From Escherichia coli (GTDB lineage Bacteria > Pseudomonadota > Gammaproteobacteria > Enterobacterales > Enterobacteriaceae), in the NCBI RefSeq assembly GCF_024298765.1, contig NZ_CP101210.1: 64,000 bases of DNA; one strand, given 5' to 3'. A program made the position numbers. Of this stretch, positions 1 through 3,000 are shown piece after piece. How positions within the stretch are numbered: the first letter of the stretch is position 1; every line of letters begins with the position of its first letter.

Positions 1-3000
1 ATACCACCTGGTACTGGAAAGAAAATTTCCCTCATGCGTATGAAGCGATTTATGGCAATTATCAAAATAATGTTTTAGCCAATATTATTTTCGTCGACTT
101 CCAGCAACAAGGTGAAAGAGGACTGACGAACGCGCCTGATGAAGATCCGGACGATTTAAGCACGGGATATTACGGTTCAGCGTACCGGTCACCGGAGAAC
201 TGGACGACGGCACTGCGAAGCAGTCATTTCAGCGCGGCAGCCCGTCGGGGGATTATTTCTGACAGGTTTGTAGAAGCAATTTTGCGGTTTTGGCGCGAAA
301 GGTGAGCGTTCATTAATTTGATTTATTTGCATCCATCAACGCTTTTAACTCCTCCGGTGAAAACGGTGGTTTGCGTCGGTGCAGCATCGCATGGCAATTA
401 GGGCACACAGGCAGCAAATCATTAACTGGATCCAGCTGGTAATCCTCTTTAATGGCTGAAAGCGGCACCAGGTGATGCATATGGATAAAGCCTTCAGCGA
501 TATCACCATAGATCTTCACCAGATCAACGCCGCATACGTTGCACTGGCATCCATGATATTCGACCGCTTTATCTCGGGCCTTTTTATCGCGTTCATAGCG
601 GTTTACTGTCACCTTTATCGCCGCACCTTCAACGTATGTCTCCTGCGACGGCAACTCATCCGGGAACAGAACGTTGGCTATGGGAGCCGCAGCGGCTTTA
701 TCCTGATGAATATGAAATCCCTGCTCTATGAGTAGTTTGACGCATTTAGATTTTATTCCGCCGGTGAAATCCGCAGGGGTAAATTGCGTCCCCGTCATCA
801 ATGTCGCTGCGATGCCAGCAATCGCCTTCGAGGGGTAACGTCGGCCATGATATTCAATCTCATACAACCGCGCAGGCTGGAACTGATGAGTTTCTCCCGC
901 ATCCCATAAATGGATAGCTTCGATGATATACCGCCGCGGAAGATGGTCGGGAAGTTTATTCATGGGGAATATCCTTATACGTTCTCAGAACAGGCAGCAA
1001 AAAAACAAATGAGATCAAGGTAATATATCTTCACTTGCAGGCTTGAACAGCAGAAAATTTGCGAGCATGATCGCAATTATTTCACTGCCAGGGATATCAA
1101 TGGCTTCCAGTAAATCGCTACAGCAGGCAATTGCCAATATAAAAATCTGGCACAAGGGTGAACAGCGCGCGCCGCATAAGCCATTGTTATTGCTATACGT
1201 ATTAGCGGGATACCTGAATGGACATCCGCGCCTTTTCGATTATGGATCGGAAATCTACGAACCTCTGCACAGTTTACTGGAACGTTTTGGGCCACAGCGT
1301 TCACAGTACCGACCTGATATGCCGTTCTGGCGATTACAAGGCGACGGATTCTGGCAATTACACAATGCCGAGCTTTGCTCAACAGCAGGGAGCAGCCGAC
1401 AACCGCCAGTGAAAGAACTGAACGAATACCACGTTGCAGGCGGTTTCGATGAACAGCACTACGCCCTGGTAACCGGCAATAAAAAACTCATCAATACTCT
1501 GGCGCAACAGATACTCGAAGCGCACTTCACCGAGAGTATTCAGGAAGAAATTGCTGACGAGCTGGGTTTTGATCTCCAGCAAATCCGTAAACAGCGCGAC
1601 CCGTTATTTCGCAAAAATGTATTACGCGCTTATAACTACCAGTGCGCGATATGTGGCTTTAATATGCGCCACGACGACACCACCGTCGCGCTGGAAGCGG
1701 CGCATATTAAATGGAAACAGCACGGCGGTCCTTGTGAAATTCCTAATGGCCTGGCGCTTTGCGCAATTCACCATAAAGCCTTTGATAAAGGATCGATTGG
1801 CCTGGACGAAAATATGCGGGTACTGGTATCAGATGCGGTAAACGGCGGAGGGATCGTTGAGAGATTATTCTGGGATTTTGACGGGAAAACTATTGCGTTG
1901 CCGCAGGTGCGTAAAAATTACCCTTATGAGGTGTTTGTAGAGTGGCATCGGAAAGAGGTTTTTAGGGGGTGAGGTTGATAACTATCGCAGTATGTTCAAT
2001 ATTGCTGACATAATCAGTGCAGGATCTTGCCGCTAGTTTACAACTCGCCTTCGATAGCGGCGCAAAACGAGTTCTGTTGCCGATATCCTCGGCTATGGAT
2101 ATTCCAACAGTTCCGGCAGAGTTGTTTACCAAGTTTCAGGTAAGTTTTTACTCAGAACCGGTTGATGCGGTTTATAAGGCGCTGGATGTGAATTAACACA
2201 TTCCTCAGCTTATTTACAAAAGGATTATTCCCATTTGATATAATATCAGTGCCAATTTACTTTTTTCAATGGAATATATCTCGACTAAATAACAATAAAA
2301 CTTATCGCTAATGGATTAAATAAACAATTTTCTAATTCATTTCACCACCTTTGATATAGAAATTGATGGTGTTGTCGCTGCCATTGCTTATGGTGATGAT
2401 AAAATCCACGTTTCTGGATCGTTGCGTAGAAAATCATCACTACCTTGATATTTTGATGCGATATAATCATACCGTTCCGTAGTACCAATTTCAATTTCAG
2501 GCTAAACCCCAACATTAAAAAAATTAGAGTTATTCACTGATTATATTATCAATAATATAATCAGTGAATAACATGAACTATATAATAAATTGCTCTAATC
2601 ATTTCCCTTACGAATATATGGGCCAAAAGTCCAAGAATCATAATAAGGGTGATGGACTAATTTTTCATTAAATCGAACACTATAAGTTAATTTTTTTATA
2701 TTTTTACGTACAGCATTAATACTGGGCAAAGAGGAAAGATAATCTATAAACTTATCGATAGTGATTTCCCCTTCGCAACACTCAAACCCATCAATGATAT
2801 TTTTCGCCATTTTTCCATTTTCATTTGTTTGATATATCACTCCAGGTATTCGTTGAAAAAAACTAGATAATGCATATTTGTCCGCTACATATATATCATC
2901 CACATGATATTTCCCACCGAGCATAGTTGTAGTAACAATAAGCTTATACACACCTTTGGGTTGCCATGTTGATGGTAGTTCGAATTCTTTAATGATCACA

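What the first reader, a model, noticed from the sequence alone, without database searches (positions are those of the whole stretch)
2014..2196. Orphan Lon-protease-like C-terminal gene fragment immediately downstream of the HNH gene
About 60 codons with no start codon translate to a sequence that follows the pattern of the last helix-strand region of Lon-type proteases. BREX brxL and several other defence systems end in Lon-like genes. A stranded 3' end suggests that the HNH genes arrived by replacing or deleting most of a pre-existing Lon-like or BREX-like locus.
Basis: partly seen in the sequence, partly recalled or inferred. Interest (0 to 1): 0.5.

Follow-up and report, generated by a model that had tools for sequence, protein, structure and literature searches.

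The report
Leftover tail of deleted BREX gene
The stretch is the dead, decaying 3' end of brxL, the last gene of a BREX-1 phage-defence operon that was deleted from this E. coli defence hotspot; it is an ordinary, already-annotated pseudogene, and the neighbouring HNH genes did not cause the loss.

Summary
Window 2017-2196 (59 codons plus stop) is the C-terminus of BREX-1 BrxL: NCBIfam BrxL profile E=2e-24, solved BrxL residues 621-678 E=1e-20, and 94.5% nucleotide identity to intact E. coli brxL. It is BrxL-specific; a true Lon protease gives E=0.52.

The remnant is longer than reported. It starts at 1983, carries an in-frame TAA at 2011-2013, and has a 57-nt in-frame deletion between GTGCAGGA repeats. 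A decayed 5' piece of the PLD-like gene that follows brxL in intact islands lies at 2295-2479.

In syntenic genomes such as strain CD45, the same SBD-HNH gene sits beside an intact operon: PDC-S11 nuclease, brxA, brxB, brxC, pglX, pglZ, brxL, PLD. A ~14.5-kb deletion therefore removed BREX. The HNH genes are conserved flank, not the displacing agent.

The identical scar is in about 340-360 of 5,426 complete E. coli genomes and in a divergent Escherichia. It shows neutral decay: GC-to-AT bias, nonsense alleles, and pN/pS 0.54 against 0.15 for the HNH gene.

The locus is the known leuX defence hotspot #37. PGAP already flags the fragment as a pseudogene. Interest is low.

The parts
1983..2016 (+). 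brxL remnant, segment A (about codons 606-616 of 694). It is in frame with segment B and carries a TAA stop at 2011-2013.
   Evidence: blastn places window 1983-2024 on brxL L003 17910-17951 (85.7%) and L002 19910-19951. Codon table. tblastn starts at 1984. The stop is CAA in one allele (L011) and AAA in the ancestral-like scar (L010).
1981..1983 (.). Left junction of the ~14.5-kb deletion: the HNH 3' flank ...TGAGGTTGATAA(C) joined to brxL TATCGC...
   Evidence: The flank matches CD45 to 1981 and brxL starts at 1983. Material missing relative to CD45 is L002 5395-19909: PDC-S11 nuclease, brxA, brxB, brxC, pglX, pglZ and brxL codons 1-605. There is no IS at the junction; only an imperfect TACCGC/TATCGC microhomology is visible (reading).
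2017..2024 (+). Junction of a 57-nt (19-codon) in-frame internal deletion, lying in the single surviving GTGCAGGA repeat.
   Evidence: Intact brxL has ..CCAGTGCAGGAACAG..(57 nt)..CCGGTGCAGGATCTT.. and the window keeps one copy. No genome among 5,426 has the left junction without this deletion.
It corresponds to residues 621-678 of solved BrxL, including the ring-ring dimerisation residues (FTKFQ).
   Evidence: PGAP annotates it as a pseudogene 'missing N-terminus'. The role of the C-terminal domain comes from PMC10164562.
2197..2294 (+). Remnant of the brxL-PLD intergenic region.
   Evidence: Window 2017-2479 aligns to CD45 L002 20001-20484 at 84.5%. Sequences are shown.
2295..2479 (+). Decayed 5' end of the PLD-like gene that follows brxL in CD45-type islands. 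The start ATG has become ATA (2295-2297), there are frameshifts, and homology ends at 2479.
   Evidence: tblastn places PLD aa 1-62 in three frames over 2295-2479. ATG versus ATA is read. About 120 genomes carry the intact gene at ~85% identity.
1100..1972 (+). Intact SBD-HNH gene ('phosphorothioated DNA-binding restriction endonuclease'), the conserved left flank of the variable cargo slot. The mechanical ORF begins at TTG 1043.
   Evidence: NCBIfam NF045808 E=1e-131. Pfam HNH_2 and DNA-SBD_ScoMcrA. PGAP coordinates.
313..963 (-). Intact second HNH gene (ScoMcrA_N plus HNH), divergent from the SBD-HNH gene.
   Evidence: It is truncated by a 571-bp deletion in CD45, S19-651 and many others.

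Best explanation
Window 1983-2479 is a deletion scar. It is the non-functional 3' end of brxL, followed by the brxL-PLD intergenic region and a decayed PLD-like 5' end. brxL is the last gene of a type-1 BREX phage-exclusion operon.

The ancestral arrangement at this position was SBD-HNH, PDC-S11 nuclease, brxA, brxB, brxC, pglX, pglZ, brxL, PLD. This is the leuX-anchored E. coli defence hotspot #37.

Two lesions define the scar. A single ~14.5-kb illegitimate deletion removed everything from 9-10 nt after the HNH stop codon to brxL codon ~605. A 57-nt slippage deletion between 8-nt GTGCAGGA repeats removed 19 further codons. This double-junction scar arose once.

The scar has since been inherited or recombined through many E. 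coli lineages and a divergent Escherichia, and it is decaying neutrally. It encodes no working protein. The N-terminal domain, the AAA+ ATPase domain and about two-thirds of the C-terminal domain are gone, and no BREX partner genes remain.

Shown: homology, synteny, both junctions, and signs of decay. Inferred: the order and mechanism of the deletions, and the absence of expression.
For: Identity of the fragment:
- BrxL profile E=2e-24, tblastn E=1e-28, solved BrxL E=1e-20, and 94.5% nucleotide identity to intact brxL.

Synteny:
- Intact BREX lies beside the same HNH gene in CD45.
- The 3' end of the HNH gene is linked to PDC-S11 and BREX in GIMC1410 and 20AR1039.
- No other BREX remnant exists in the 64-kb window.

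Single origin:
- About 340-360 of 5,426 genomes carry both junctions.
- So do 30 metagenome contigs and a divergent Escherichia, L010.
- No genome has the left junction without the 57-nt deletion.

Decay:
- An in-frame TAA in segment A.
- 13 substitutions on the window branch, 10 of them GC-to-AT, split 7 synonymous to 6 non-synonymous.
- Within E. coli, 4 synonymous and 7 non-synonymous polymorphisms in the 59-codon frame, including a nonsense allele in 3 of 34 copies. pN/pS is 0.54 against 0.15 for the adjacent HNH gene.
- The PLD start codon is lost and the gene is frameshifted.

Annotation and context:
- PGAP annotates the fragment as an incomplete pseudogene.
- Independent BREX-loss scars occur at the same locus: a brxA 5' pseudogene in CFT073, PDC-S11 only in W2-5, and IS911-truncated brxL in FG31-1.
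- Hotspot #37 carries BREX in 9% of enterobacterial genomes and shows replacement of systems (PMC12707154).
Against: - The 59-codon frame is still open in most copies. The pN/pS estimate rests on only 11 polymorphisms, so weak constraint cannot be excluded.
- The scar has survived since before the split from a lineage whose uxuAB genes are only 96.4% identical to E. coli. That is long for useless DNA.
- The left break coincides to within 1 nt with the point where other cargo types (McrBC-type) diverge from the HNH flank. A random deletion does not predict this.
- The same scar allele is found with two different right-hand contexts that begin exactly after the brxL stop. At least one later exchange remains unexplained.
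- No intact brxL allele closer than 94.5% (segment B) or PLD region closer than ~85% was found, so the exact parent island is not in hand.
Confidence: 0.92

Rival explanations
1. One reading: the HNH genes are incoming DNA whose insertion replaced or deleted most of a resident BREX or Lon-like locus, leaving its 3' end.
For: The remnant begins only 10 nt after the HNH stop codon. That point is also the boundary at which unrelated cargo types abut the HNH module in other genomes, so the HNH block does behave as a unit with a sharp right edge.
Against: - The same SBD-HNH gene, with an identical 3' flank, lies beside an intact BREX operon in CD45 and O111:H8 strains.
- Its 3' 282 nt are physically linked to PDC-S11 and BREX in a different island context.
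- In every genome inspected the HNH pair keeps the same left neighbour (nanM/nanS), while only the right side varies.
- CFT073 and W2-5 lost BREX by other routes while keeping the HNH-PDC-S11 junction.
Confidence: 0.04
2. The remnant has been exapted. It might be a 59-aa micro-protein (the BrxL ring-dimerisation surface), a 3' UTR or terminator region for the SBD-HNH gene, or a homology patch that lets incoming BREX-flanked cassettes recombine into the hotspot.
For: - The frame is open in 31 of 34 copies.
- The scar is present in ~6% of E. coli genomes and in a divergent Escherichia.
- Two alternative downstream contexts, both also seen after intact brxL genes, start exactly at the brxL stop. 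This fits brxL 3' DNA acting as a recombination boundary.
Against: - There is no ATG and no Shine-Dalgarno sequence before GTG 2017.
- A nonsense allele segregates, and pN/pS is 0.54 against 0.15 for the neighbouring gene.
- The substitution spectrum is GC-to-AT biased, with 6 of 13 changes non-synonymous.
- No terminator-like site lies on the + strand between 1972 and 2529, and the promoter-like sites found were not above the shuffled expectation. There is no Rfam match.
- The window-type B allele extends to within 10 nt of the stop in both downstream contexts, so homologous crossover inside the remnant does not explain the exchange.
- An isolated 59-residue piece of a 180-residue domain is unlikely to fold (inference).
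Confidence: 0.04
3. It is a fragment of a canonical Lon (S16) protease or of another Lon-containing defence system, not of BREX.
For: Intact BrxL carries a Lon_C-like Pfam domain. Some databases name the 59-aa ORF 'ATP-dependent Lon protease'.
Against: - The fragment hits only the BrxL-specific profile and solved BrxL structures; true Lon gives E=0.52.
- Nucleotide identity to brxL is 94.5%.
- The downstream DNA is also colinear with the brxL-PLD junction of a BREX island.
Confidence: 0.005

Closest known systems
BrxL, the Lon-related AAA+ protein of type-1 BREX (NCBIfam TIGR02653; structures 8EMC, 8EMH, 8EIL)
   Same: The 59 codons align end-to-end with the last 58-59 residues of BrxL (E=2e-24 and 1e-20). 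They include the FTKFQ segment that holds the ring-ring dimer contacts T658 and Q661 of the solved protein. Nucleotide identity to intact E. coli brxL is 94.5%.
   Different: Only ~70 of 694 codons remain. The N-terminal domain, the AAA+ ATPase domain and most of the C-terminal domain are missing. There is a 19-codon internal deletion and an in-frame stop, and no brxA, brxB, brxC, pglX or pglZ. It is a pseudogene, not a member that can function.
E. coli defence hotspot #37 (leuX-anchored island, bounded by lptG and uxuR; PMC10121019, reviewed in PMC12707154)
   Same: The chromosomal position matches: nanC/nanM on one side, and leuX-ahr-yjgR-lptG on the other at 33.9-38 kb of the window. The hotspot is reported to carry BREX in 9% of genomes and to show replacement of defence clusters.
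   Different: I did not find this particular brxL scar described in the papers I read; I did not search specifically for one. In this window it sits in the older, integrase-less part of the island, separated from leuX by a newer 28.6-kb island.
Other BREX-loss scars in E. coli
   Same: These are partial BREX genes left at the same locus or at others: a brxA 5' pseudogene plus IS-disrupted PDC-S11 in CFT073, IS911-truncated brxL ('S16 family serine protease' pseudogene) in FG31-1, and a similarly annotated brxL 3' match in ATCC 8739.
   Different: Those scars have different breakpoints. The FG31-1 and CFT073 loci that I inspected involve insertion sequences. The scar studied here has two IS-free junctions and is shared by ~6% of complete genomes.
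Lon protease (MEROPS S16) C-terminal domain
   Same: The parent BrxL C-terminal domain has the Lon/RadA C-terminal fold (PMC10164562) and matches Pfam Lon_C at E=1e-13 over residues 515-689.
   Different: BrxL lacks the protease catalytic motif (PMC10164562). The fragment alone shows no significant similarity to Lon (E=0.52).

Membership tests
BrxL (BREX-1 Lon-related AAA+ protein, TIGR02653) | Sequence match to the BrxL-specific profile or solved structure over the region present | tested here: met
   TIGR02653 E=2e-24, positions 617-675 of 675. 8EMH residues 621-678, E=1e-20. tblastn E=1.3e-28.
BrxL (BREX-1 Lon-related AAA+ protein, TIGR02653) | N-terminal BrxL_N domain (PF20442) and AAA+ ATPase domain (PF13337) | tested here: not met
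   Intact BrxL shows both domains. The window contains no match to BrxL aa 1-605. The score of 85.9 bits is far below the family cut-off of 628 bits.
BrxL (BREX-1 Lon-related AAA+ protein, TIGR02653) | Complete C-terminal Lon/RadA-like domain (~180 residues) | tested here: not met
   Only residues ~606-616 and 636-694 remain, with a 19-codon deletion and a TAA stop between them.
BrxL (BREX-1 Lon-related AAA+ protein, TIGR02653) | Position as the last gene of a brxA-brxB-brxC-pglX-pglZ-brxL operon | tested here: not met
   No remnant of the five upstream genes exists anywhere in the window. The operon is present at the syntenic position in CD45.
Lon protease (S16) | Significant match to the Lon_C proteolytic domain, including the Ser-Lys dyad region | tested here: not met
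   The fragment has no Pfam Lon_C hit. Lon 7P6U gives E=0.52. The parent BrxL C-terminal domain lacks the protease motif (PMC10164562).
Pseudogene / deletion scar | Homology to part of an intact gene that occupies the same chromosomal position in relatives | tested here: met
   CD45 synteny and colinear flanks on both sides.
Pseudogene / deletion scar | Disabling lesions | tested here: met
   Loss of 605 codons and of the start codon, a 57-nt internal deletion, a TAA at 2011-2013, and a nonsense allele in 3 of 34 copies. PGAP marks it 'incomplete; missing N-terminus'.
Pseudogene / deletion scar | Relaxed selection relative to neighbouring genes | tested here: inconclusive
   pN/pS is 0.54 (4 synonymous, 7 non-synonymous) against 0.15 (44 synonymous, 23 non-synonymous) for SBD-HNH. 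Ten of 13 branch substitutions are GC-to-AT. The direction is as expected, but the counts are small.

The most novel reading that the evidence does not exclude
The scar may be more than debris. The break points of defence cassettes at hotspot #37 may be non-random.
- On the left, they fall in the loop of a hairpin that caps the SBD-HNH gene, at GGTTGATAA|. The BREX-type cargo, the McrBC-type cargo and this scar all share that point.
- On the right, the break falls exactly at the brxL stop codon.

On this reading the retained brxL tail marks, or even serves as, a recurrent cassette-exchange boundary. That would explain why one scar allele occurs with two different downstream modules and why it has persisted across Escherichia lineages.
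Probability: 0.07. Interest if true: 0.4.

Novelty: already known. Interest (0 to 1): 0.12.

Why it matters
The result matters mainly as bookkeeping.
- It shows that this strain once carried, and then lost, a BREX-1 system at the leuX hotspot.
- This one scar is about as common among complete E. coli genomes (~340-360) as an intact brxL 3' region (~400).
- BREX has been eroded repeatedly, by different routes, at the same locus.

These points are useful for annotating defence repertoires, because fragment ORFs named 'Lon protease' should not be counted as defence genes. They are also useful for reconstructing turnover in defence islands. The result does not reveal a new system or mechanism.

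Tried and rejected
- **Species-representative genomes.** A 17-mer across the left junction returned only 19 chance hits in unrelated taxa. The pattern was too short to be specific. The only conclusion is that no species-representative genome with this exact junction turned up.
- **Protein database search with the 59-aa peptide.** It returned only short fragment ORFs and no full-length BrxL, so it did not identify a closer parent allele. It did reveal the variant scar alleles P0001 and P0031.
- **Plasmid collection and E. coli genomes.** Neither holds a brxL/PLD allele closer than ~93% and ~85% respectively.
- **Inverted repeat 2000-2019 / 2535-2554 (I3).** I considered it as a sign of template switching. 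I rejected it as chance, because 17 comparable pairs occur in 6 kb.
- **An IS element or long repeat at either junction.** None is present.
- **The GAGGTTGATAA motif as a repeated recombination site.** It has 3 matches in the window against 1.1 expected, and 10 of 100 shuffles do as well. This is not significant.
- **Known RNA families in 1-6000.** None.
- **Homologous crossover inside the remnant as the source of the two downstream contexts.** The allele patterns do not support it.
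Full report
**Where the window lies.** The window is E. coli chromosome. Positions 1-12000 are 99.8% identical to strain 181.1 and to related avian and human isolates. The finding lies between nanM/nanS' and the tRNA-Leu(CAA) gene leuX at 33942-34026. Beyond leuX come ahr, yjgR, lptG/F, pepA and valS. [quoted passage not shown] It is described as the most highly occupied defence island of E. coli, with BREX present in 9% of enterobacterial genomes and with replacement of whole systems (PMC12707154; primary study PMC10121019).

**Checking the observation.**
- Its 59 codons from GTG 2017 match the BrxL-specific NCBIfam model TIGR02653 at E=2e-24, over profile positions 617-675 of 675.
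- They match residues 621-678 of the solved 679-residue BrxL (8EMH/8EMC) at E=1e-20.
- tblastn with the BrxL of strain CD45 gives E=1.3e-28.
- At the DNA level, 2017-2197 is 94.5% identical to the end of an intact brxL in strain GIMC1410.

It is BrxL-specific rather than generically Lon-like. The fragment alone gives no Pfam Lon_C hit, and a true Lon protease scores E=0.52.

The intact BrxL C-terminal domain has the Lon/RadA C-terminal fold. It lacks a protease motif and mediates tail-to-tail pairing of the AAA+ rings (PMC10164562). By my count on the alignment, the remnant includes the FTKFQ segment that holds the dimer-interface residues T658 and Q661.

**The remnant is larger and more damaged than reported.**
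- Window 1983-2024 aligns with brxL about 90 nt upstream of the main piece (85.7% to L003 17910-17951), in the same frame (IAVCSILLT*SVQ against IALCSILLAKPVQ).
- A 57-nt, 19-codon in-frame deletion separates the two pieces. It lies between two GTGCAGGA repeats, the 'PVQ...PVQ' codons, which is a classic slippage product.
- Segment A contains a TAA stop at 2011-2013.
- To the left, homology to the HNH 3' flank runs to 1981/1982 and brxL starts at 1983, with no filler and no IS. Only an imperfect TACCGC/TATCGC microhomology is visible.
- To the right, 2197-2479 is colinear (84.5% over 2017-2479) with the DNA that follows brxL in CD45. It comprises the intergenic region and the first 62 codons of a PLD-like gene. 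That gene's start has become ATA, and its reading frame is broken into three frames.
- Homology stops at 2479. A 30%-GC segment follows, carrying an unrelated 682-codon ORF.
- No other BREX gene fragment exists anywhere in the 64 kb.

**What stood here.** In strain CD45, and in O111:H8 strains, the same chromosomal position reads nanC-nanM-nanS'-HNH'-SBD-HNH-PDC-S11 (PDDEXK nuclease)-brxA-brxB-brxC-pglX-pglZ-brxL-PLD-...-leuX. Relative to CD45, the window lacks L002 5395-19909, which is 14.5 kb from 9-10 nt after the SBD-HNH stop codon to brxL codon ~605.

The SBD-HNH gene is named 'phosphorothioated DNA-binding restriction endonuclease' (NF045808, E=1e-131). It is 97.9% identical between the two strains and has the same TGAGGTTGATAA tail. 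In GIMC1410 and 20AR1039, the last 282 nt of this HNH gene travel with PDC-S11 and BREX next to the leuX integrase. The HNH-PDC-S11-BREX contiguity is therefore old.

Of the ~1,900 genomes that match the flank-and-scar query, those without the scar or brxL match only the 3' end of the SBD-HNH gene. In every locus inspected that gene kept its left neighbour (nanS), while the right side varied: BREX, McrBC plus type I RM on one strand, McrCB on the other, PDC-S11 alone, or this scar. The HNH genes are conserved flank, and BREX was lost by deletion beside them.

**Population picture.**
- The full scar, with both junctions, is present in 339-360 of 5,426 complete E. coli genomes, depending on the query. 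An intact brxL 3' region is present in about 398.
- No genome has the left junction without the 57-nt deletion.
- A junction-spanning pattern retrieved 30 metagenome contigs. With four other loci, this gave 34 copies in 11 alleles, all sharing both junctions.
- One assembly, GCA_903932005 (locus L010), has uxuAB genes only 96.4% identical to the best of 5,404 E. coli genomes. It carries the same two junctions but with brxL-like ancestral bases. The scar therefore arose once and is old.

**Evidence for decay.**
- Using intact alleles and L010 to polarise changes, the window lineage has accumulated 13 substitutions. Ten are GC-to-AT, and they split 7 synonymous to 6 non-synonymous, including K to Q to stop.
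- Within E. coli, the 59-codon frame has 4 synonymous and 7 non-synonymous polymorphisms, including a nonsense allele in 3 of 34 copies. pN/pS is 0.54, against 0.15 for the adjacent HNH gene.
- The counts are small, but together with the structural lesions they indicate neutral decay.
- There is no Shine-Dalgarno sequence before GTG 2017, the promoter-like sites found were not above the shuffled expectation and there is no + strand terminator-like site, and there is no Rfam match.
- PGAP already annotates the stretch as an incomplete pseudogene. Other pipelines call it a 59-aa hypothetical protein or 'ATP-dependent Lon protease'.

**BREX erosion is recurrent here.**
- CFT073 retains a brxA 5' pseudogene and an IS-disrupted PDC-S11 gene.
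- W2-5 retains PDC-S11 only.
- FG31-1 has a brxL tail truncated next to IS911.

**Unexplained residue.**
- The left break coincides to within 1 nt with the point at which BREX-type and McrBC-type cargoes diverge from the HNH flank; a third cargo type diverges 6 nt earlier.
- In the BREX-type and McrBC-type arrangements this point lies in the loop of a hairpin overlapping the HNH stop codon. The folding energies are -8.7 kcal/mol (z = -2.8) and -5.5 kcal/mol (z = -2.5). The window has lost the 3' arm.
- The same scar allele occurs with two right-hand contexts that begin exactly after the brxL stop. One is the PLD type, as here and in CD45. The other is the type seen after intact brxL in GIMC1410, found in L010, L034, L043 and L056.
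- Crossover inside the remnant does not explain this, because the allele is window-type to within 10 nt of the stop.
- These points allow a low-probability reading that cassette boundaries in this hotspot are mechanistically defined. I did not test that further.

**Verdict.** This is an ordinary, already-annotated pseudogene in a well-known hypervariable defence island, so interest is low.

Noticed in passing
window 2595-4643 (- strand): A 682-aa ORF in a 30%-GC segment (about 2480-4800) replaces the rest of the PLD gene. It has no Pfam, NCBIfam or PDB-sequence match, and only a weak PADLOC hit (PDC-M29B, E=0.001). It is annotated as a hypothetical protein (WP_000417002.1) and is frameshifted in strain 2014C-3338. 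As an uncharacterised gene in defence hotspot #37, it is a candidate defence gene.
   Followed up: partly
window 2295-2479: This is the decayed 5' end (ATG to ATA, frameshifts) of the PLD-like gene that follows brxL in CD45-type islands. The intact gene is annotated 'phospholipase D-like domain-containing protein', and 'anti-phage END nuclease' in one genome. It weakly resembles ZacB and DrmC in PADLOC.
   Followed up: partly
window 419-989: A 571-bp deletion polymorphism. Many genomes (CD45, S19-651, W2-5 and 8 of the 30 metagenome contigs, including scar carriers) lack this stretch. The deletion removes the N-terminal two-thirds of the first HNH gene (313-963, - strand) and the divergent intergenic region. 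The window has the intact form.
   Followed up: partly
window 5269-5343 (- strand): A degenerate copy of the 3' end of leuX (GTTCGAGTCCGGCCTTC-GCACCA, with a 1-nt deletion) plus its downstream terminator-like flank. It marks an old attachment site. A newer ~28.6-kb island (about 5344-33941) lies between it and the real leuX. That island has a P4-type integrase at 32490-33755 and CbtA/CbeA, RadC, antirestriction, DUF932 and GTPase genes. Other strains diverge from the window exactly at ~5337-5343.
   Followed up: partly
window 1966-1982, compared with L002 5378-5406 and L004 8068-8094: The right edge of the conserved HNH flank (GGTTGATAA|) is the break point for BREX-type cargo, McrBC-type cargo and this scar. 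In the first two it lies in the loop of a hairpin overlapping the HNH stop codon (-8.7 and -5.5 kcal/mol). The reason for the coincidence is unexplained.
   Followed up: partly
window 2529-2572: A perfect 21-nt inverted repeat with a 2-nt spacer and a T-run on the - strand. It is probably the terminator of the 682-aa ORF. It lies 50 nt beyond the end of the BREX/PLD-derived DNA.
   Followed up: no
L010 6230-10250; L034, L043, L056: The same brxL scar occurs with a second right-hand context that starts immediately after the brxL stop codon. That context matches the DNA downstream of intact brxL in GIMC1410 rather than the PLD type. L034-type copies also carry a nonsense mutation (GAA to TAA) in the 59-codon frame.
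   Followed up: partly
L062 (CFT073), L061 (W2-5), L005 (FG31-1): Independent BREX-loss scars in other strains, the first two at the same locus. CFT073 has a brxA 5' pseudogene plus ISEc40-disrupted PDC-S11. W2-5 has PDC-S11 alone. FG31-1 has a 110-codon brxL tail next to IS911.
   Followed up: partly
window 16558-17436; 22052-23260; 23784-30073; 30130-30912: Inside the newer island there are an Mrr_cat-domain ORF, a DDE transposase, a chaperone-usher fimbrial operon (usher of 836 aa at 24546-27056) and an EAL-domain protein.
   Followed up: no
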